From contig JBBIHG010000003.1 of assembly GCA_037447125.1 (NCBI GenBank), forward strand, positions 8,493 to 72,492: DNA of 64,000 nucleotides, given 5' to 3'. Source of the stretch: Chloroflexota bacterium (GTDB lineage: Bacteria > Chloroflexota > Anaerolineae > Aggregatilineales > Aggregatilineaceae). Below, piece by piece: positions 55,114 through 61,643 of this stretch. The notes beneath the pieces were generated by a model. That model saw only the letters and a list, made by a program, of their open reading frames with translations, did not search any database and was not told the origin of the DNA. A program made the translations under genes and the position numbers. The stretch's first letter is position 1. Each line of letters opens with the position of its first letter.

Positions 55114-55626
55114 ATGGCTTCTCAAGATGCATTCCGCGACTCCTTGGTCTCCTACTTTGGCAGGTTGCGTGAGCGGGTGACAACAGAGACGGGGGATTGG
55201 ACGGTAAAAGGATTCATTGACGTTTACCAGCGCATCTACACGATCACGCTGGACACCAAAGTGCTGTCCAAAGCACTTGAGTTGTTGATGTTTCCAGCGT
55301 TGGTCGAGTTTGCTCAGGCAAACGGCTACCAGATGGTGTTGGCCCGCCAACAAAACCAATATCCCGACATCAGTTGGCTAGCTCCCGATGGCGCCAAATA
55401 TGCGCTAGACATCAAGTCCACATATCGTAGAGTGGTGGATCGCCAGGGGAGGTCCAAGGTCAACGGGATGACGTTAGGGACGTACACAGGCTACTTCAGG
55501 GCGCGAGAAAGTGCCTCAATCACCACCTTTCCCTACCAGGACTATGCCAAGCATTATGTGCTCGGCGTAATCTACTCTCAGATCAAGGGCCTTGATGAGC
55601 GGCGTGTCTATGACATCGGCCAACTG
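55114..55626 (+). pseudogene. EcoRV-family restriction endonuclease, C-terminally truncated (ORF tail to 55722 is antisense of hepT)
   Basis: 'LDTKVLSKALELL', 'QQNQYPDISWLAPDGAKYALDIKSTY' and 'FPYQDYAKHYVLGVIYSQ' parallel R.EcoRV 'SDTKVLSTIFELF', 'QQNHYPDFTLYKPSEPNKKIAIDIKTTY' and 'YPFDQYIAHWIIGYVYTR' (recalled from memory). Similarity ends near aa 171 of an expected ~245. Confidence 0.7.
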
Positions 55627-55888
55627 CCACCAGGTCAACGCGGTCATACTCGTGGATCAGCTTGCTGCGCATTCCCGCGATCTGCTGCCAGGGTATCTCA
55701 GGGTGGCTGGCTCGAAAAGTGATTGAGGTGCGCCGGACAGCTTCACCAATGACCTCGATGCGCCGGATCACAGCGTCCTGGGTCTTGATATCCTGCTCAA
55801 AGGCAGCCTGATCCATGCCCTGCACGAAGGTCTGGATCATCTGTGCACTTTGCAGCATATCGAGCAGGTAGACCAGATCACGCTGCAT
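55583..55888 (-). pseudogene. hepT: HepT (DUF86/HEPN) toxin, second copy, apparently missing its C-terminal helix
   Basis: 'RSKLIHEY' Rx4HxY motif. Colinear with the 12859 copy up to 'DRVDLVAV' (down to ~55622). The remaining 12 codons are antisense of the endonuclease ORF. Confidence 0.65.
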
Positions 55889-56201
55889 ACACCACCCGCG
55901 CTGACTGCAAGATAGCCTTGCGCAGAAGATAATTCGGGTCGCGCTCGATGACCCGGCGATAGAGCAAATCTACCCGGCGGCCCAACAGCGCCTCCAGTTC
56001 GCGGCGCATTGCCTGGCGGTCGGGAACGGGATCGGCATCTGGCGCGAAAGTCACCAGCACGTCCACGTCGCTTTGCGGCCCGAAATTGCTGCGCAGCACC
56101 GAGCCAAATAGCGCCAGTTCGATGATGTTCCATCGCCGGCAGAACGCCGCAATGCCCTCCATCGGCAGATCAATCGGCAGCCGGTCTTGCGTCTTGCTCA
56201 T
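55878..56201 (-). CDS. mntA: MntA minimal nucleotidyltransferase antitoxin, second copy
   Basis: ATG at 56201 (MSKTQDRLP). 'LFGSVLRSNFGPQSDVDVLV'. Overlaps the hepT start by 11 nt. The tracked 311-aa ORF is an artefactual extension. Confidence 0.85.
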   Translation of the reverse strand: MSKTQDRLPIDLPMEGIAAFCRRWNIIELALFGSVLRSNFGPQSDVDVLVTFAPDADPVPDRQAMRRELEALLGRRVDLLYRRVIERDPNYLLRKAILQSARVVYAA

Positions 56202-56310
56202 CTCTGTCGCCCAATCACTCTCCTTCTTTGAGCGCCTATTATCCCCCAAACGCGGCGGAGAGAAAACCATCAGTTCAACAGGGTGTATCTCACGGTAGGG
56301 ACGAGATTCC

Positions 56311-56397
56311 TGAACCGCAGAGGCGCAGAGGACGCGGAGAAGAACTGGAACCTCTCGATACTTACTTTTCTCTGCGCTCTCTGCGTCTCGGCGGTGA
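56311..56397. repeat. REP-A element, copy 5
   Basis: TGAACCGCAGAGGCGCAGAGGACGCGGAGAAG ... TTCTCTGCGCTCTCTGCGTCTCGGCGGTGATC. Confidence 0.85.
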
Positions 56398-56494
56398 TCT
56401 CTTTCAGAAGATGAAATGCGCCCATTCAACACAAACCGCCCCCGCGCGAGTCCCTTCGCACGGGGGCGGTGCTTTGCCGCTAACTGCCGCCAGC

Positions 56495-58294
56495 CTAGGC
56501 CAGCGTCAGCGCCTTGCTCGCCACGAGGCGCGTCGCCAGGTCGGCGAAAGCCAGCACCGGCTGCGGCCCCAGGTCTTCGCCGGAGCGCAGCCGCACGCTG
56601 ACCGTGCTCGACGCCGCGTCGCGGTCGCCGACGACCAGCATCCAGGGAATCTTCTGCTGCGTCGCCGCGCGAATCTTGCCCCCAACGCGCCCGTTGGAGT
56701 CGTCCACCTGCACGCGCAGGCCCTTGCTGTGCAGGATGTTCGCCACGTCCTGGGCGTAGGCAATGTGCCGGTCGGCCACCGGGATCAGCGCGACCTGTAG
56801 CGGGGCCAGCCACGCCGGGAACGCGCCGGCGTAGTGCTCGATCAGCACGGCGACGAAGCGCTCCATGCTGCCGTACAGCGCGCGGTGGATCATGATCGGC
56901 TGGTGGCGCTCGTTGTCCTCGCCGACGTATTCCAGCTCGAAGCGCGCCGGCAGGTTATAGTCCACCTGCACGGTGCTGATCTGCCACTCGCGCTTGAGCG
57001 CATCACGGATGATGAAGTCCAGCTTGGGGCCATAGAAGGCCGCCTCGCCCTCCTCCACCGTGAAGTTCAGCCCCCGCCTGGTCGCCGCGGCGATGATCGC
57101 TTTGGCCGCCTGCTCCCAGACTTCGTCGCTGCCCACGTATTTGTCGCTCTGCGGGTCGCGGACGCCCACCCGCGCCCGGTAGTCGGTCAGCCCCAGGCTG
57201 CGGAAGATGAACTCCACCAGGTCCACCACGCCCAGGAACTCGTCCTCAAGCTGCTCCGGCGTGCAGAAGATATGGGCGTCGTCCTGGGTGAAGCCGCGCA
57301 CACGGGTCAGGCCGTGCAGCTCGCCCGATTTCTCGTAGCGGTAGACCGTGCCGAACTCAGCCATGCGCACCGGCAGGTCGCGATACGAATGCAGGTCGTC
57401 CTTATAGACGTGGATGTGGTGCGGGCAGTTCATCGGCTTGAGCATGAACAGGTCACCCTCCACCTCGAAGGGCGAGTACTGGCTGTCCTTGTAGTACGGG
57501 TAGTGCCCGCTCTTCTCGTAGAGGGCCACGCGCGCGATATGCGGCGTGATGACCGGCTCGTAGCCGCGCTCGATCTGCACCTCGCGCAGGAAGCGCTCCA
57601 GCAGGTCGCGCAGGATCGCGCCGTTGGGCTTCCACAGCGGCAGACCCTTGCCCACCAGTTGGTTGAAGGTGAACAGGCCAAGTTGCTGGCCGAGCGCGCG
57701 GTGATCGCGCTTGCGGGCTTCTTCGAGCAGGGCCAGGTACTCCTCAAGCTGCTCCGCCGTCTCCCAGGCCGTGCCGTAGATGCGGGTGAGCATCTCGCGG
57801 TTCTCGTCGCCGCGCCAGTAAGCGCCCGCCGGCGCTTTGAAGGTGATGCTCAGCGCGTCCGGGTTGATCTCGCGCGTGTTGGCCACATGCGGTCCCCGGC
57901 ACAGGTCTTCGAACGTGTCCTGCGTGTACGTGCTGATCACCACCGCTTCGTCGGTTTTCTCGCCGTACTCGTCCACGCCGCCACGCTCCAGCCCGTCAAT
58001 CAGCTCGATCTTGTACGGCTGGTCGTGGAACAGGACGCGCGCCTCACTGGCGCTGACCTCCTTGCGAACGAAGTCGTGCCCTTCGCGGATGATGGCGCGC
58101 ATCCGCGCCTCGATCTCGGCCAGGTCTTCATCGGTCAACGGGCGCGGCAGGTCGAAGTCATAGTAGAAGCCGTCTTCGATGGGCGGGCCGATGGCGATCT
58201 TGGCCTGGGGGAACTTCTCCAGTACGGCCTGAGCCATGACGTGCGCCGTGGAATGGCGGATGCGGTAGAGCTTGCTGTCTTGATAGCGTTTCAT
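56495..58294 (-). CDS. thrS: Threonine--tRNA ligase lacking the N-terminal TGS domain (599 aa)
   Basis: ATG at 58294 after AGGAGAA. 'RIRHSTAHVMAQAV' (editing-domain HxxxH) at residues 11-24. Class II motifs 'FRDLPVRMAEFGTVYRYE', 'GLTRVRGFTQDDAHIF', 'ERFVAVLIEH'. Anticodon-binding C-terminus. Confidence 0.92.
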   Translation of the reverse strand: MKRYQDSKLYRIRHSTAHVMAQAVLEKFPQAKIAIGPPIEDGFYYDFDLPRPLTDEDLAEIEARMRAIIREGHDFVRKEVSASEARVLFHDQPYKIELIDGLERGGVDEYGEKTDEAVVISTYTQDTFEDLCRGPHVANTREINPDALSITFKAPAGAYWRGDENREMLTRIYGTAWETAEQLEEYLALLEEARKRDHRALGQQLGLFTFNQLVGKGLPLWKPNGAILRDLLERFLREVQIERGYEPVITPHIARVALYEKSGHYPYYKDSQYSPFEVEGDLFMLKPMNCPHHIHVYKDDLHSYRDLPVRMAEFGTVYRYEKSGELHGLTRVRGFTQDDAHIFCTPEQLEDEFLGVVDLVEFIFRSLGLTDYRARVGVRDPQSDKYVGSDEVWEQAAKAIIAAATRRGLNFTVEEGEAAFYGPKLDFIIRDALKREWQISTVQVDYNLPARFELEYVGEDNERHQPIMIHRALYGSMERFVAVLIEHYAGAFPAWLAPLQVALIPVADRHIAYAQDVANILHSKGLRVQVDDSNGRVGGKIRAATQQKIPWMLVVGDRDAASSTVSVRLRSGEDLGPQPVLAFADLATRLVASKALTLA

Positions 58295-58432
58295 GAGCTT
58301 GTCGGTCTTCTCCTGTTGGCTTGCGTCGCTGCTGCGGGCGGGCGCACGAGTCACGGTCCGGCGGCGCCGTCCTACAACACCAGTCACACGGCAGATTGTC
58401 ACGTGCAGGGGGAACGAGCAGAGCTGCTCTGC

Positions 58433-58480
58433 GCTGATCCCCGCTGCCGGCGCAACGCAGCGCGCCCGGCAGGGATCAGC
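58433..58480 (-). other. Long GC hairpin in the spacer between the unknown ORF and thrS
   Basis: GCTGATCCCCGCTGCCGGCGC-aacgcagc-GCGCCCGGCAGGGATCAGC (plus-strand reading). No U-tract follows it. Confidence 0.5.
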
Positions 58481-58560
58481 ACAGAAGGTCCCTACCCAGA
58501 GCGCCCGGCAGTCGTGCGCGTTCCAGTCTCAGTAGGGAGTTCGGTCATAGGGCGCTTCTT

Positions 58561-58908
58561 TCAGCCAGGCAGCAGCCCGGCCTCGCTGGCGAACTCGACG
58601 AAGACGTTTTCGAAGACGCCGAGCACCATCAGGTTGTCCACCACATCTTCGATGACATCCGGCGTCAGCTTTTCGACGATGACGTGCGGCGTCTCCAGCG
58701 CCAGAAACTGCATCGGGGCCAACGCGCCGTCGTGCTGGCGGGCGACATCCAGACTGAGCTGCATCTCCTGCTGGAGATGCGGCAGGGTGACGAAATGGGC
58801 CTGCCACAGCCTGCTGTCTTCCATCTCCACCAGAACATCGGCGCTGTCGTTGAGCGGGTCGAACCCGACCTGAGGCTCAGGCTCAATCCATACGCGTTTG
58901 ACGAACAC
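58561..58908 (-). CDS. Hypothetical protein (115 aa from GTG 58908; 125 aa if TTG 58938)
   Basis: GC3-rich, coding-like frame. AAGGA lies 8 nt before the GTG. It is the first ORF after the T-box terminator. I recognise no family. Confidence 0.55.
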   Translation of the reverse strand: MFVKRVWIEPEPQVGFDPLNDSADVLVEMEDSRLWQAHFVTLPHLQQEMQLSLDVARQHDGALAPMQFLALETPHVIVEKLTPDVIEDVVDNLMVLGVFENVFVEFASEAGLLPG

Positions 58909-58970
58909 GGCTCTGATCCTTACTAACTCATCCTCCAAACTCCTACCACCATACTACACCGATAACGCCC

Positions 58971-59264
58971 CAAAAATGAAGACCCCCGCCCAAAGTTGGG
59001 GCGAGGGTCAAGATCCTCCACGCGGTTCCACCCAAGTTCGACAGGGCGCGGCGCAGGGCGGCGCGCTGTCCTCATGGCGGCTGCTAACGGGGCCAACCGG
59101 CGTCGCTTACTGGGCGCTCAGGGCGCTGTTAGGCAGCGCGCTCACGGGGGGTTTTCCTGGCTCGCCGGATGAGCGGACTCCCAGTCGCGGTCCGCTCTCC
59201 CTGGAACCGGGGATGAGCCAGTACTCGTCCCGATCCACACGTTGGAGGGTATGCGCTTGGCTGT
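58971..59264 (-). promoter_or_regulatory. T-box riboswitch leader (tRNA-sensing transcription attenuator), probable Thr specifier
   Basis: Minus strand shows 'GACGAGTA' (specifier-loop 5' side), 'AGGGAGAGC' AG-bulge, 'GAGCCAG-GAAAACCC' (specifier loop 3' side) and the T-box sequence 'AACTTGGGTGGAACCGCG' (59021-59038). An 11-bp terminator GACCCTCGCCC/GGGCGGGGGTC plus TTCATTTTT follows, and its 5' arm can pair alternatively with the T-box. Confidence 0.75.
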
Positions 59265-59269
59265 TGTAC

Positions 59270-59298
59270 AGGATACTGGAGGGTGCGGTCGCTGTCAA
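59270..59298 (-). promoter_or_regulatory. Sigma70-type promoter driving the T-box leader
   Basis: Minus strand TTGACA (59298-59293), 17 nt spacer, TATCCT (59275-59270). Confidence 0.6.
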
Positions 59299-59331
59299 GG
59301 CTCAGGGGGCGCGGCTCGCCGCCCGGACGCA

Positions 59332-59362
59332 ACTTCGGGAGTCCTTGCGGGACTCCCGAAGT
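59332..59362. repeat. Perfect 13-bp-arm hairpin ACTTCGGGAGTCC-ttgcg-GGACTCCCGAAGT downstream of the 59415 gene
   Basis: Read directly. The arm is related to the 43767 palindrome. No U-run follows, so terminator function is uncertain. Confidence 0.65.
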
Positions 59363-59414
59363 CCGTCATCACACGCACTCGCCATCCCCGCCGGGCGACA
59401 ACGCCCTGCCCGTC

Positions 59415-61643
59415 CTACGGCGTGTCGTTGTACACGCGGTAGCTGAGCCAGACCGTCTCGCCGCTGCGGTTATCTACGCGGATCACCGCGCGCCGCCCCT
59501 CGGGAATGGTCATGCCGAAGACGGCGCCGGGCTGCACCTTGTCGGTGCCGACGCCCACCGTGTTATTGATGACAGCAGGCGTCAGCATGTCGTAGTGCAC
59601 GTTCTCGTAGGTCACGCCAGACAACTGGCCGATCTGCGCGCCGTTGAGCATGGCGATGTTGTAGCCATCCCAGAAGAAGTCGGGCGTGCCGCCGAACATG
59701 TCCCACTGCGTGTTCGGCCCAAGCTGGATGTTGATCTGGTTGGCCAGCAGCGGATAGTCCACGCGGTAAGGAACATTGAACAGATTGTTGCCCTCGTTCA
59801 GCTCGGCCACCTCATTGTTCAGGTCGGCCACGACCGCCACCTGGAAGACTCCGGTGCCCATCAGCGTGCCGCTGAGCTGCACGGGCAGGCTCTGCCCGCC
59901 AGCCAGCCCTTCCACGAACGCCGACGTATAAACTGCGCCCGGCTCCCAGGTGGCCGCTACCGCGAAGCGACCCGCCGCGCCGCCGCCAGCATTGCGCACA
60001 GTCACGGTGGCCGTGAACGGCCTGTTGGGAATTGGCTGGGAGGGATTGAGCACCACTGAATCGATGACAATATCCGGCTCAGGGGGCAGCGCCGGCGTGG
60101 GCGAGAGCGCCGGGATGGGCGTGGGCGGCGACTGCACGACGGAGACCTGGTTGAGGTCGCCCAGGACCCTGGTGTACTCGGTACGCACCCAGCCGAAGCC
60201 GTCCTTGTACTCGATGACCAGCCAGCCATAGTCGGCGGAAGCACCCAGGACGCGGAAGCGCTCGCCGGCCTTGATCTGCCCAATCTGGTCGAAGTTGAAC
60301 CCTGGCCCATTGCGCACGTTGAGCACGTTGGCCGTCACCTCGATCCACACGCCTTCCAGGACCTCGGTCGGCGCAGCCGTCGGCTGCTCTGGCGCGACGG
60401 TAGGCTCGGGGGCCACCGGCTCTGGCAACAGACCAGCCTGGTCCAGGCCCAGCCGCTCCGTATCATCAAAGCGGGCGAGAACCCTGGAGCCACCGCGCGA
60501 CTCCACCCGGTAGACGACGCCCAGACGCGCCAGGTCGCCATTGCCGAAGTCCGTCGGGCGCACTACTCCTTGCACCAGGCTGCGCGCGTTGCCTCCAAGC
60601 AGCGCCGCGCGCAGTCCCGCTGGCGTGACGCCACCCTCGATCATCGCCGCGCGCAGGACCCACACCGCGTCGTAGGCGGCCACCGCCAGCGGATCCGGCA
60701 CTTGGCCGAAGGCGACCACATAATCGCGCAGGAAGATGCGCCCGGCAGGCAGCGCATCGGCGTAGGACCACGAGTCGAAGCCGAGCATGCCATCGCCCAG
60801 GCGGACGGGCACCACGCCCGACCGGACCGCTGCCTCCGCGTGGCGGTAGGCGAAGACGCCGCCCCACCCTGCCTCGCGCAGCGCGCCCAGCAGCGCCGCC
60901 GCGTCCTCCGGCGCGCCCCACATCACCACCGCATCCGGGTTAATCTCCAGCAGGCGCGGGGCCTCGTCCAGCAGAGCGCTGCCGCCCGGAATCTGGATGA
61001 TCTCAGACGGCGACCGATCCTCCGCGCGGAGCGTCACCTCAAAATCCATCAGCGCCTCAGTGAACTCGACTTCCGTCTGGACGAGGGCGAAAGTGGCGAT
61101 GCCCAGATCGGTCATCAGGTACCTGGCGATGGCGTTGCTCATCACGCGCTCCGGCGCGCGGGTGCGAAAGATGACATTGGCCGTGTCCACGTCGGTCATG
61201 GCGTTCTGCGTCGCCGGCGTGAAGACAGGCAGTCCCGTCGCGGCCAGCGCGGCGATGGTGTCCGGCGTGATCTGGGCGTTCGTATCGGGGCCAAGCAGCG
61301 CGCCAACTCCCTGCTCAGTCAGTTCGGCCAGCGCGCCCGGCAGGGACTCGACCGTCGGCGCCTGCTCAAGCGCCACCAGTTCCAGTTGGACGGTCGCCCC
61401 GCCCGCCGCGCGCACGCCCCCGACCGAGTTAATCTGGTCAATGGCTAGCTGCGCGCCGTTGGCCGTGGCGCTGCCCAGCGGGCCGAGATAGCCGATACGG
61501 AAGACGCTGGCCTGGGCCGCAGGCGCAGCCTGGGTCAGCGGCGCGACCAGCCCCATCACCAGCAGCATCACCAGGGCCAGCCCGGCGACACGCCAGCGCC
61601 GGGTTCTGCTATGAGCCATCGCAAGCTTCTGCACCTTCATCAC
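59415..61643 (-). CDS. Secreted multidomain protein: type I periplasmic-binding (LivK-like) domain + SH3b + CARDB-like + C-terminal beta domain
   Basis: Signal peptide. 'FRIGYLGPLGSATANGAQLAIDQINSVGGV' (Leu/Ile/Val-binding fold). 'VRNGPGFNFDQIGQIKAGERFRVLG...GWLVIEY.DGFGWV' (SH3b). 'PNRPFTATVTVRNAGGGAAG' (CARDB-like). Confidence 0.7.
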   Translation of the reverse strand: MMKVQKLAMAHSRTRRWRVAGLALVMLLVMGLVAPLTQAAPAAQASVFRIGYLGPLGSATANGAQLAIDQINSVGGVRAAGGATVQLELVALEQAPTVESLPGALAELTEQGVGALLGPDTNAQITPDTIAALAATGLPVFTPATQNAMTDVDTANVIFRTRAPERVMSNAIARYLMTDLGIATFALVQTEVEFTEALMDFEVTLRAEDRSPSEIIQIPGGSALLDEAPRLLEINPDAVVMWGAPEDAAALLGALREAGWGGVFAYRHAEAAVRSGVVPVRLGDGMLGFDSWSYADALPAGRIFLRDYVVAFGQVPDPLAVAAYDAVWVLRAAMIEGGVTPAGLRAALLGGNARSLVQGVVRPTDFGNGDLARLGVVYRVESRGGSRVLARFDDTERLGLDQAGLLPEPVAPEPTVAPEQPTAAPTEVLEGVWIEVTANVLNVRNGPGFNFDQIGQIKAGERFRVLGASADYGWLVIEYKDGFGWVRTEYTRVLGDLNQVSVVQSPPTPIPALSPTPALPPEPDIVIDSVVLNPSQPIPNRPFTATVTVRNAGGGAAGRFAVAATWEPGAVYTSAFVEGLAGGQSLPVQLSGTLMGTGVFQVAVVADLNNEVAELNEGNNLFNVPYRVDYPLLANQINIQLGPNTQWDMFGGTPDFFWDGYNIAMLNGAQIGQLSGVTYENVHYDMLTPAVINNTVGVGTDKVQPGAVFGMTIPEGRRAVIRVDNRSGETVWLSYRVYNDTP

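What the first reader, a model, noticed from the sequence alone, without database searches (positions are those of the whole stretch)
58561..59298. T-box leader is separated from thrS by an uncharacterised ORF; the ThrRS lacks its TGS domain
A complete T-box attenuator lies on the minus strand. It has a TTGACA-17-TATCCT promoter, stem I elements, the 'AACTTGGGTGGAACCGCG' box, and an 11-bp terminator plus U-tract.

The first gene behind it is not an aaRS. It is a 115-125 aa ORF of unknown family, followed by a 266-nt structured spacer and then thrS.

The specifier loop 3' side reads GAAAACCC, so the specifier is either ACC (Thr) or AAC (Asn). The UGGA variable base would pair with a U73 discriminator, which does not fit the G73 I recall for bacterial tRNA-Asn. 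I therefore favour Thr.

The ThrRS starts 11 residues before its HxxxH editing motif, so it has no TGS domain. A tRNA-Thr-sensing switch would then be co-regulating an unknown small protein with a TGS-less ThrRS. The unknown protein could be a ThrRS accessory or trans-acting factor.
Basis: partly seen in the sequence, partly recalled or inferred. Interest (0 to 1): 0.65.

Follow-up and report, generated by a model that had tools for sequence, protein, structure and literature searches.

The report
Double threonine sensor controlling thrS operon

Summary
- **T-box:** a full-length, Thr-specific T-box lies on the minus strand (RF00230, E 1.5e-14, below Rfam's gathering score). It has a conserved TTGACA-17-TATCCT promoter and a terminator.
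- **ORF:** the next gene is a 115-aa orphan protein.
- **Spacer and thrS:** a 266-nt spacer follows, then a ThrRS without the TGS/N1 domain.
- **Specifier:** ACC (Thr). It is invariant in relatives while the base before it varies.

The spacer is more than structured RNA. It holds an 18-codon leader ORF, MTELPTETGTRTTAGRSG. This ORF recurs in 31 loci as 30 different peptides. Thr codons make up 28.6% in frame, against 4.3% background. Its stop codon sits 7 nt before a long hairpin, and its 3' end can pair with that hairpin's 5' arm instead. Both pairings show compensatory changes.

thrS therefore seems to sit behind two serial tRNA-Thr sensors. How the second one acts on thrS is unresolved in this window.

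The ORF–thrS pair recurs in all 58 informative loci. In a sister clade without a T-box, the ORF's own Thr-rich tail usually precedes a terminator and then thrS. The ORF has no TGS fold and no known relative. A ThrRS-accessory role is neither supported nor excluded. All 240 listed relatives lack TGS.

The parts
59270..59298 (-). Sigma-70-type promoter TTGACA-17-TATCCT that drives the T-box leader
   Evidence: One search finds it as the only promoter-like site in the region. One search finds the same motif at the same place in 34 of 37 related loci.
58994..59246 (-). T-box leader (stem I, specifier loop, stem III, antiterminator/terminator)
   Evidence: RF00230, 68.9 bits, E 1.5e-14, model positions 1-219 of 219; the same family is found upstream of the ORF in 5 of 7 relatives scanned, at 53-91 bits.
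59150..59152 (-). Specifier codon ACC (Thr) within GAAAACCC
   Evidence: The register comes from the cmscan alignment. In relatives ACC is invariant while the preceding base is A, G or U.
59021..59038 (-). T-box sequence AACUUGGGUGGAACCGCG. UGGA is at 59030-59027.
   Evidence: GGGTGGAACCGCG is exact in 36 of 40 loci and differs by one base in two more.
58971..59009 (-). T-box intrinsic terminator: an 11-bp stem followed by UUCAUUUUUG
58951..58960 (-). Conserved GGTGTAGTAT box (G[GT]TG + TAnnnT) between the terminator and the ORF. Its role is unknown; it could be a second promoter or a processing site.
   Evidence: present in 33 of 40 loci, 46-68 nt before the ORF start; it moves together with insertions.
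58561..58908 (-). ORF115, a conserved acidic 115-aa protein of unknown fold and function (GTG start)
   Evidence: 140 homologues and 23 invariant columns. AlphaFold pLDDT 81.5; no family or structure match.
58492..58548 (-). Thr-rich leader ORF, ATG..TAG, encoding MTELPTETGTRTTAGRSG (6 Thr in 18). An AAGAAG Shine-Dalgarno-like site lies 6 nt upstream. The Thr pair ACG ACU is at 58515-58510.
   Evidence: found in 31 loci as 30 distinct peptides. ACN codons are 28.6% in frame, against 8.7% and 1.6% in the other frames and 4.3% Thr background.
58488..58497 (-). Segment 1' (GGG UAG GGA C). It includes the leader stop codon and is complementary to the 5' arm of the hairpin.
   Evidence: 92% of cells paired, with two-sided GC-to-AU changes that include the third base of the stop codon; this helix forms in the nascent transcript.
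58429..58484 (-). Conserved 56-nt hairpin (segments 2:3) that starts 7 nt after the leader stop codon
   Evidence: found in 31 loci; spaced exactly 7 nt from the stop in 29 of 31, with 92% of cells paired in the outer 15 bp and two-sided changes in 6 columns; only one copy in the window.
58404..58428 (-). Segment 4, a C-rich stretch (..CUCUGCUCGUUCCCCCUG..) complementary to segments 1' and 3. It is the main predicted partner of the thrS Shine-Dalgarno in this window.
58307..58314 (-). thrS Shine-Dalgarno AGGAGAAG
   Evidence: conserved upstream of the conserved ATG.
56495..58294 (-). thrS, a 599-aa ThrRS with the N2 editing domain, catalytic core and anticodon-binding domain, but no N1/TGS
   Evidence: Pfam domains. 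TIGR00418 at 699.7 bits; alignment offsets against solved ThrRS structures; relatives.
56435..56470 (-). Intrinsic terminator that ends the operon
   Evidence: 15-bp stem followed by TTGTGTTG.

Best explanation
This is the thrS operon of an uncultured Anaerolineae (Aggregatilineaceae-like) bacterium. One promoter drives, in order:
1. a Thr-specific (ACC) T-box terminator/antiterminator;
2. a conserved 115-aa orphan protein (ORF115);
3. an 18-codon Thr-rich leader ORF, starting 12 nt after the ORF115 stop;
4. a set of mutually exclusive RNA helices built around the leader's stop codon;
5. a TGS-less ThrRS.

**Proposed mechanism.** Uncharged tRNA-Thr(GGU) stabilises the T-box antiterminator and lets RNA polymerase enter the operon. 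This step is inferred from what is known of the T-box family. Ribosomes translating the leader then read Thr-tRNA supply a second time.

When Thr-tRNA is scarce, ribosomes stall on the Thr codons (76% are ACC or ACU, read by the same isoacceptor). The stop-codon segment GGUAGGGA is then free to pair with the 5' arm of the hairpin. When Thr-tRNA is plentiful, the ribosome runs to the stop codon and covers that segment, so the long hairpin forms. Which fold forms decides whether the C-rich segment 4 is free or paired. That in turn would control expression of the next cistron.

**What is shown.** The elements exist, and their order, conservation, frame-specific Thr bias and covariation are measured.

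**What is inferred.** That the leader is translated, the direction of the switch (more ThrRS when Thr-tRNA is low), and the output step. The output could be Shine-Dalgarno masking, Rho access or mRNA processing.

ORF115 is a genuine protein that has travelled with thrS throughout this group. Its function is not established.
For: **T-box**
- establish the T-box, its promoter and its terminator.
- ACC is invariant while the base before it varies.
- The promoter is conserved in 34 of 37 loci.

**Single transcription unit**
- No terminator-like or promoter-like site lies between the ORF and thrS.
- The leader start lies between 4 nt before and 28 nt after the ORF stop in 29 of 31 loci.

**Leader ORF**
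- It is present in 31 loci as 30 distinct peptides of 13-30 aa.
- It always ends in frame at the conserved stop, and a purine-rich (Shine-Dalgarno-like) stretch precedes nearly every start.
- ACN codons are 169 of 591 (28.6%) in frame, against 8.7% and 1.6% in the other frames and 4.3% Thr background.

**RNA structure**
- The hairpin starts exactly 7 nt after the stop in 29 of 31 loci.
- Helix 2:3 and the competing helix 1':2 are each 92% paired and carry two-sided compensatory changes.
- In L022 and L025, a C-to-U change in segment 2 is matched by G-to-A in the stop-codon segment.
- The codons just after the Thr pair are complementary to the apical loop. The pairing is GCGGC:GCCGC in 18 of 19 loci, switches to GCCCCC:GGGGGC in 4 of 4 distant loci (0 of 27 elsewhere), and is GCAGCCCC:GGGGCUGC in L011.
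- Helix 1':2 forms in the folded nascent transcript.

**Output**
- In the 9 loci where an extra small ORF follows, segment 4 is a strong anti-Shine-Dalgarno in 7 (dG -16 to -23 kcal/mol, z -1.8 to -4.7).
- In this window, segment 4 is the main predicted partner of the thrS Shine-Dalgarno.

**Independent support from the sister clade**
- This clade has no T-box. The ORF115 homologue itself ends in a Thr run (e.g. TTTGTTNTGKRATTEVAAVVLSDVLVV).
- A clear intrinsic terminator follows in 7 of 17 loci, and thrS is found downstream in the 12 loci whose contigs extend far enough.

**Precedent**
- Classical attenuators are known before pheST, trpS and leuS (PMC1262725).
Against: - No experiment shows that the leader is translated or that the transcript is continuous.
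- No U-tract terminator follows the hairpin in the window. It is therefore not a classical transcriptional attenuator.
- Where thrS follows the element directly, the partner of the thrS Shine-Dalgarno is not consistent between loci. Mean z of segment 4:Shine-Dalgarno pairing is +0.3.
- The whole spacer folds no better than shuffled sequence (z 0.09).
- At equilibrium the long hairpin outcompetes helix 1':2, so the switch would have to be kinetic.
- Much of the covariation rests on a few deep splits between clades, which means few independent events.
- Eight T-box loci lack the leader altogether: L006-8, L015, L018, L029, L031 and L047.
- The window's Shine-Dalgarno for the leader is AAGAAG, weaker than the AAGGAG of close relatives.
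- A conserved TAnnnT box after the T-box terminator could be a promoter that bypasses the T-box.
- Antiterminator complementarity in the sister clade is only modest (z -1.2 to -2.1 in 6 of 7 loci).
Confidence: 0.68

Rival explanations
1. A single T-box co-regulates the small ORF and thrS. The spacer is only structured RNA. The ORF encodes a trans-acting partner of the TGS-less ThrRS, for example a stand-in for the missing N1 domain.
For: - The ORF-thrS pair is kept in every locus examined where the contig allows: 39 of 40, 6 of 6 more distant loci and 12 further loci.
- The pair persists whether the upstream control is a T-box, a T-box plus leader, or a plain promoter.
- All associated ThrRS lack TGS.
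- The ORF shows protein-level conservation with 23 invariant columns and gives a confident model.
Against: - The ORF shows no similarity to TGS or to any known fold or family.
- Distant family members lie in unrelated contexts.
- Synteny alone does not show a physical or functional partnership.
- The spacer clearly carries a frame-specific Thr-rich ORF.
Confidence: 0.2
2. The mini-ORF is not translated. The conserved hairpin region would be an RNA-level element independent of ribosomes, such as an RNase III or processing site, an mRNA stabiliser, or a protein-binding operator (for example for ThrRS autoregulation). The apparent Thr codons would be a by-product of sequence constraints.
For: - The most conserved part of the peptide (T-T-G-R) coincides with RNA segments that pair elsewhere, so RNA constraints could explain it.
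- No canonical terminator or consistent Shine-Dalgarno masking is seen in the window's subclade.
- E. coli thrS is known to be controlled by an operator RNA bound by ThrRS (established knowledge).
Against: - The Thr bias is frame-specific and extends through the variable 5' part of the ORF, where no RNA pairing is conserved.
- Length varies from 13 to 30 codons, yet the frame, the start (ATG in 30 of 31 loci, GTG in one), the upstream purine-rich stretch and the stop are kept.
- The apical loops do not resemble a tRNA-Thr anticodon loop.
- The sister clade places a Thr run in a translated tail before a real terminator.
Confidence: 0.12
3. ORF115 is a passenger with no role in threonine or ThrRS biology. 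It could be a domesticated member of a small family of immunity-like proteins, retained mainly because its translation delivers ribosomes to the Thr-sensing leader or tail.
For: - The family is tiny: 62 clusters among 1.84 billion representatives.
- Distant members lie away from thrS. One follows a gene with a weak Pre-toxin TG hit (E 0.014, below cut-off).
- Some members occur as tandem or fused copies.
- In the sister clade the ORF's own tail is the putative leader.
Against: - A mere ribosome-delivery role would not need 23 invariant residues and a conserved fold.
- The immunity link rests on one sub-threshold hit.
- Strict synteny holds down to 37% identity.
Confidence: 0.25

Closest known systems
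T-box leaders of Bacillus subtilis thrS and thrZ (RF00230)
   Same: Both are Thr-codon specifier T-boxes with competing antiterminator and terminator structures upstream of a threonyl-tRNA synthetase gene.
   Different: - Here the first cistron is an orphan protein, not the synthetase.
- The match scores below Rfam's gathering threshold.
- The base after the specifier is C rather than a purine.
- A second, ribosome-based sensor lies between the T-box and thrS.
Streptococcus pneumoniae spr1471, listed as a T-box(Thr)-controlled 'Thr-tRNA ligase related hypothetical' (Wels et al. 2008, PMC2494555)
   Same: It is a precedent for a Thr T-box whose first downstream gene is an uncharacterised ORF linked to thrS.
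   Different: No homology to ORF115 was detected. The ORF115 profile finds only 62 clusters, and none was identified as streptococcal. No leader peptide is reported there.
Leader-peptide attenuators of synthetase operons: pheM-pheST in gamma-proteobacteria, and trpS and leuS in Streptomyces (PMC1262725)
   Same: Each has a short upstream ORF enriched in the cognate codon, overlapping alternative RNA helices, placed before a synthetase gene.
   Different: - In the window no intrinsic terminator follows the helices.
- The cognate amino acid is Thr.
- The element sits inside an operon already gated by a T-box.
- No literature report of such an element for thrS was found.
E. coli thr operon leader thrL (Rfam Thr_leader)
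   Same: Both are Thr-rich leader peptides that sense Thr-tRNA through ribosome stalling.
   Different: - No Thr_leader match was listed at E up to 10.
- thrL controls biosynthetic genes through a classical terminator.
- thrL also contains Ile codons.
Translational attenuation of ermC/cat type
   Same: A ribosome stalled in a leader ORF would remodel downstream helices that otherwise mask a Shine-Dalgarno. In 7 related loci segment 4 is a clear anti-Shine-Dalgarno.
   Different: Stalling would be caused by scarce aminoacyl-tRNA, not by an antibiotic. Shine-Dalgarno masking is not consistently predicted where thrS follows directly.
E. coli thrS translational operator (ThrRS binds tRNA-like stem-loops in its own mRNA)
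   Same: Both are structured RNAs immediately upstream of thrS.
   Different: No anticodon-loop mimic is seen in the hairpin loops. A translated Thr-rich ORF is present instead.

Membership tests
T-box leader (RF00230) | Match to the family covariance model over its full length, at the curated gathering score | tested here: inconclusive
   The match is full-length (positions 1-219 of 219), at 68.9 bits and E 1.5e-14, but the gathering score is 93. Relatives score 53-91 bits.
T-box leader (RF00230) | Specifier loop with a codon that matches the regulated gene's amino acid | tested here: met
   GAA-A-ACC-C. ACC (Thr) is invariant while the preceding base is A, G or U. thrS lies downstream. The usual purine after the codon is C here.
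T-box leader (RF00230) | Conserved T-box sequence with UGGN in an antiterminator bulge, overlapping an intrinsic terminator | tested here: met
   GGGUGGAACCGCG overlaps an 11-bp terminator followed by a U-run. It is conserved in 38 of 40 loci.
T-box leader (RF00230) | The N of UGGN pairs with the discriminator base of the cognate tRNA (here U73 is predicted) | not testable with these tools
   No tRNA-Thr gene is present in the window or in any fetched locus. The one ARAGORN call in L013 lies inside a coding sequence.
Ribosome-mediated (leader-peptide) attenuator | Short ORF with a start codon and Shine-Dalgarno, enriched in codons of the regulating amino acid | tested here: met
   18 codons with 6 Thr. 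Across 31 loci Thr codons are 28.6% in frame, against 8.7% and 1.6% out of frame and 4.3% background.
Ribosome-mediated (leader-peptide) attenuator | Mutually exclusive helices, one of which involves the 3' end of the leader ORF | tested here: met
   Helices 1':2 and 2:3 are each 92% paired and carry compensatory changes. Complementarity between the leader and the apical loop switches between clades.
Ribosome-mediated (leader-peptide) attenuator | An intrinsic terminator as one of the alternative structures (classical transcriptional type) | tested here: not met
   No U-tract terminator follows the hairpin in the window. Clear terminators are present in 7 of 17 sister-clade loci.
Ribosome-mediated (leader-peptide) attenuator | Alternatively, an anti-Shine-Dalgarno that masks the downstream ribosome-binding site (translational type) | tested here: inconclusive
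   It is strong in 7 of the 9 loci with an extra ORF. In the window segment 4 is the main predicted partner, but only weakly (dG -13, z -1.1). It is not seen in the closest relatives.
Rfam Thr_leader | Match to the covariance model | tested here: not met
   It is not among the matches listed at E up to 10 for 58200-59500.
Bacterial ThrRS (TIGR00418) | Editing (tRNA_SAD/N2) domain, class II core and anticodon-binding domain | tested here: met
   TIGR00418 scores 699.7 bits against a cut-off of 383.65. The Pfam domains are found.
Bacterial ThrRS (TIGR00418) | N-terminal N1/TGS domain of the canonical bacterial architecture | tested here: not met
   There is no PF02824 hit. The alignment starts at residue 68-70 of solved ThrRS structures. 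All 240 listed relatives also lack it.
TGS / beta-grasp domain (as the identity of ORF115) | Sequence or fold similarity to TGS | tested here: not met
   There is no Pfam or NCBIfam hit. Foldseek against the PDB and BFVD gives nothing below E 0.01, with TM-score at most 0.34. A profile search against PDB sequences gives only E 0.94.

The most novel reading that the evidence does not exclude
ORF115-family proteins are dedicated partners of the TGS-less ThrRS of this Anaerolineae group, either as a trans-acting subunit or as a regulator. The gene pair has been kept together through at least three different regulatory designs. In the sister clade, the protein's own C-terminal tail doubles as the Thr-sensing leader peptide of a transcriptional attenuator. 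That would mean a functional protein whose last ~35 codons act as the attenuator's leader peptide.
Probability: 0.2. Interest if true: 0.78.

Novelty: new variant of a known kind. Interest (0 to 1): 0.62.

Why it matters
T-boxes and leader-peptide attenuators are the two classic ways bacteria read tRNA charging. They are usually described as alternatives used by different phyla (PMC1262725).

Here both appear to sit in series on one synthetase operon and to read the same isoacceptor. The T-box would sense uncharged tRNA directly. The ribosome on the leader would sense the supply of charged tRNA. This offers a natural system for asking what a cell gains from two-step gating of a synthetase gene.

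The sister clade points to an unusual attenuator in which the leader is the tail of a 140-aa conserved protein. The strictly thrS-linked orphan protein is also a concrete candidate for a new ThrRS-associated factor in a poorly studied, mostly uncultured lineage.

Tried and rejected
- **Default Rfam scan.** The whole-window scan at the gathering threshold found nothing. A permissive local scan was needed to see the T-box.
- **AAC (Asn) specifier.** Rejected, because the base before ACC varies between loci.
- **ORF115 as a split-off TGS domain.** Rejected for now. There is no Pfam, NCBIfam, PADLOC or PHROGs hit, no PDB or BFVD fold match and no PDB sequence match.
- **A second T-box or another known RNA family in the spacer.** None found.
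- **The hairpin as a dispersed repeat.** It has a single copy in the window.
- **The hairpin as a classical terminator.** It has no U-tract.
- **Segment 4 as a general anti-Shine-Dalgarno for thrS.** Not supported where thrS follows directly.
- **Pairing between the leader's 5' part and the thrS ribosome-binding site.** Predicted in the window's subclade, but it rests on five near-identical sequences with no covariation. I give it no weight.
- **The extra Cys-rich small ORF of 9 relatives.** No significant remnant in the window.
- **tRNA-Thr discriminator base.** No tRNA-Thr gene was available, and one ARAGORN call was false.
- **Contexts of distant ORF115 relatives.** Short contigs with unrelated neighbours, which were uninformative.
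- **Literature searches.** None returned a report of a TGS-less bacterial ThrRS, a thrS leader peptide, or a T-box and leader peptide in series.
- **Whether these genomes hold a second, TGS-containing thrS.** Could not be tested.
Full report
**Observation**

On the minus strand, the sequence reads in this order:
- a TTGACA-17-TATCCT promoter at 59298..59270;
- a T-box leader;
- an intrinsic terminator at 59009..58981, followed by a T-run;
- a small ORF ending at 58561;
- a 266-nt spacer;
- thrS at 58294..56495, with its own terminator at 56470..56435.

The promoter and both terminators are the only such sites the consensus scan finds in 56300-59500.

The default Rfam scan of the whole window reports nothing. 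A permissive scan of 58200-59500 gives RF00230 over the full model (positions 1-219 of 219) at 68.9 bits and E 1.5e-14, against a gathering score of 93. The same family is found at the same place in five of seven relatives scanned, at 53-91 bits. A TTGACA-N17/18-TAT[CG]CT promoter precedes the T-box in 34 of 37 related loci. The T-box is therefore real, although divergent from the Rfam seed.

**Specifier**

The cmscan register places ACC at the specifier position within GAAAACCC.

In relatives the triplet ACC never changes. The base before it is A, G or U, and the base after it is C, A, G or U. AAC is therefore excluded, and the T-box reads Thr. This matches the thrS gene downstream.

UGGA is invariant, so U73 is predicted for tRNA-Thr. 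I could not check this. Neither the window nor any of the fetched loci holds a tRNA-Thr gene. The single ARAGORN call in L013 lies inside a coding sequence.

**The small ORF**

It has no Pfam, NCBIfam, PADLOC or PHROGs match. It has 140 homologues, all unnamed or annotated only as 'hypothetical protein' (one carries an evidently spurious JGI name); every source name that gives an organism is Anaerolineae, Aggregatilineaceae or Chloroflexi.

Their alignment has 23 invariant columns. It begins M-[LF]-[VI]-K-R-V-W, which places the start at the GTG at 58908 and gives 115 aa.

An AlphaFold model built on this alignment is confident (pLDDT 81.5, pTM 0.73). It matches nothing in the PDB or in BFVD: the best E-values are 0.04 and 0.026, and TM-scores are at most 0.34. 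A profile search of PDB sequences gives only E 0.94. The ORF is not a TGS domain.

A profile search of 1.84 billion representative proteins finds only 62 clusters. The distant members I could place are not next to thrS. One follows a gene with a sub-threshold Pre-toxin TG hit. That is a weak hint of an immunity-like ancestry and nothing more.

**Linkage to thrS**

- In 40 species-level genome loci that encode an ORF homologue, a TGS-less thrS follows in 39. The remaining contig ends too early. The T-box sequence lies upstream in 38.
- I then stepped outward through ThrRS relatives of 67-70% identity. All six loci I fetched again have an ORF115 homologue directly upstream of thrS (hmmsearch E 1e-31 to 2e-46). 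One has a T-box, a second copy of that locus is cut at the contig end, and four have only a plain promoter.
- A metagenome scan added 13 further loci of this sister clade.

All 240 ThrRS relatives listed in two searches lack PF02824. Residue 9 of the window's ThrRS aligns with residue 70 of S. aureus ThrRS and residue 68 of E. coli ThrRS. The missing TGS domain is thus a property of a large Anaerolineae group, not of this gene alone.

**The spacer holds a Thr-rich leader ORF**

Twelve nucleotides after the ORF115 stop, and preceded by AAGAAG (AAGGAG in close relatives), an ATG at 58548 opens an 18-codon frame. It encodes MTELPTETGTRTTAGRSG and ends at the TAG at 58494-58492.

The same feature is present in 31 loci, as 30 different peptides of 13-30 residues. 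The consensus is M-T-[DE]...G-T-T-G-R-x-x-stop.

| Measure | Value |
|---|---|
| ACN codons in frame | 169 of 591 (28.6%) |
| ACN triplets in the other two frames | 8.7% and 1.6% |
| Thr in the flanking proteins | 4.3% |
| Pooled binomial p | about 1e-87 (loci are related, so this overstates independence) |
| Thr codons that are ACC or ACU | 76% |

ACC and ACU are read by the same tRNA-Thr(GGU) that an ACC specifier selects.

**RNA structure around the leader stop codon**

In 29 of 31 loci a long hairpin starts exactly 7 nt after the stop codon. In the window it spans 58484-58429. Its outer 15 base pairs are 92% paired across loci, with two-sided changes in six columns.

The segment that contains the stop codon (CGG-UAG-GGA-C) is complementary to the 5' arm of that hairpin. 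This competing helix is also 92% paired. It carries GC-to-AU double changes, including one that involves the third base of the stop codon. In L022 and L025, a C-to-U change in the arm is matched by G-to-A next to the stop, while the 3' arm keeps a G·U pair.

The codons just after the conserved Thr pair are complementary to the apical loop of the hairpin:
- GCGGC:GCCGC in 18 of 19 loci;
- GCCCCC:GGGGGC in all four distant loci, and in 0 of 27 others;
- GCAGCCCC:GGGGCUGC in L011.

Duplex energies for 1':2, 2:3 and 3:4 exceed those of shuffled partners (-28.4 against -19.5, -41.8 against -25.4, and -16.9 against -11.3 kcal/mol).

When the nascent transcript is folded, helix 1':2 forms first. When the full element is folded, the long hairpin forms, extended by pairing of 1' with the C-rich segment 4.

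**Output step**

This is the weak point of the model.
- No U-tract terminator follows the hairpin in the window.
- Nine relatives have an extra 58-73-aa ORF (…EWANVG.CGG…RCC-x-stop) between the element and thrS. In seven of them, segment 4 (CCCCUGUUAGC) is a strong anti-Shine-Dalgarno for that ORF (dG -16 to -23 kcal/mol, z -1.8 to -4.7).
- The window has no significant remnant of that ORF.
- Where thrS follows directly, the predicted partner of its Shine-Dalgarno differs from locus to locus. In the window it is mainly segment 4, but weakly (dG -13, z -1.1).
- The whole spacer is no more stable than shuffled sequence.

Shine-Dalgarno masking, Rho access to the C-rich segment, and processing all remain possible.

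**Independent support from the sister clade**

This clade has no T-box. Its ORF115 homologue is 139-149 aa. Its C-terminal tail carries a Thr run followed by a conserved stretch, for example ...VTEDDEETTTGTTNTGKRATTEVAAVVLSDVLVVDR.

About 30-40 nt after the stop lies a clear intrinsic terminator in 7 of 17 loci, for example ACGCCAGG..CCUGGCGUUUUU. thrS is found further downstream in the 12 loci whose contigs extend far enough.

The last codons of the tail are complementary to the terminator's 5' arm. This complementarity is only modestly above shuffled sequence (z -1.2 to -2.1 in six of seven loci).

This is the layout of a classical attenuator, with the tail of a real protein acting as the leader. 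The tail motif VTED..TT.TGKR resembles the window clade's separate leader MTD..TTGR. This suggests that the mini-ORF is a split-off tail, which is an inference.

**Interpretation**

The best reading is a thrS operon gated twice by tRNA-Thr status: first by a T-box at transcription, then by a Thr-rich leader ORF that selects between alternative folds just upstream of thrS.

The following are inferences rather than results:
- that the leader is translated;
- the direction of the switch;
- the output step;
- that the ORF, the leader and thrS are co-transcribed.

Co-transcription is supported only by the absence of terminator-like or promoter-like sites in between and by the tight spacing of the cistrons.

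A conserved GGTGTAGTAT box just after the T-box terminator occurs in 33 of 40 loci. It might be a weak promoter that bypasses the T-box. I could not settle this.

**Comparison with what is known**

- T-box control of thrS is standard in Firmicutes. A Thr T-box followed by an uncharacterised 'Thr-tRNA ligase related' ORF has been listed for S. pneumoniae (PMC2494555).
- Classical attenuators are known before pheST, trpS and leuS. The same paper states that synthetase genes in Firmicutes use T-boxes and none use classical attenuation (PMC1262725).
- My searches found no report of a leader peptide before thrS, or of a T-box and a leader-peptide element in series on one operon.

I therefore rate this a new variant of known kinds.

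ORF115's function stays open.

Noticed in passing
window 58951-58960 (minus strand): A conserved 10-mer GGTGTAGTAT (pattern G[GT]TG + TAnnnT) lies just after the T-box terminator, 46-68 nt before the ORF start, in 33 of 40 loci. It shifts together with insertions. Unlike the real promoter, it has no TTGACA at 16-18 nt. It could be a second promoter or a processing site.
   Followed up: partly
L010, L016, L019, L020, L021, L023, L024, L027, L033 (between the leader hairpin and thrS; e.g. L019:1328-1531): An extra conserved 58-73-aa ORF (…AEWANVG.CGGMFRP…N(Q)RCC-x-stop). Its Shine-Dalgarno GCUAACAGGAGG is complementary to segment 4 of the leader element. It is absent from the window. Its function is unknown.
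   Followed up: partly
L049:3368-4001, L050:3496-4001, L051:2465-3001, L052:2484-3001, L053-L064: The sister clade has no T-box. Its ORF115 homologue (139-149 aa) ends in a Thr-rich tail, which in many loci is followed by an intrinsic terminator and then thrS. This looks like an attenuator whose leader is the tail of a folded protein.
   Followed up: partly
window 55583-56201 (minus strand): Directly downstream of the thrS terminator lies a nucleotidyltransferase (NTP_transf_2, 55878-56201) followed by a HepT-like RNase (55583-55888). This is an MNT/HEPN-type toxin-antitoxin pair. The HepT match covers profile positions 1-102 of 120.
   Followed up: no
window 59415-61643 (minus strand): The gene upstream encodes a 742-aa protein that combines a periplasmic-binding domain (Peripla_BP_6), a bacterial SH3 domain and a CARDB domain. 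It ends in a strong hairpin at about 59330-59370, which explains a weak Scr4115 match on the plus strand.
   Followed up: no
L006-L008, L015, L018, L029, L031, L047: These loci have the T-box, the ORF115 homologue and thrS, but no Thr-rich leader with hairpin (L029 and L031 keep a short upstream ORF but not the hairpin). The second sensor has therefore been lost, or was never gained, in some lineages.
   Followed up: partly
L042:2-1100: A distant ORF115-family member overlaps the end of a gene that has a sub-threshold Pre-toxin TG hit (E 0.014). Other distant members occur as tandem or fused copies (P0157, P0171, P0177). This may hint at a toxin-immunity ancestry for the family.
   Followed up: partly
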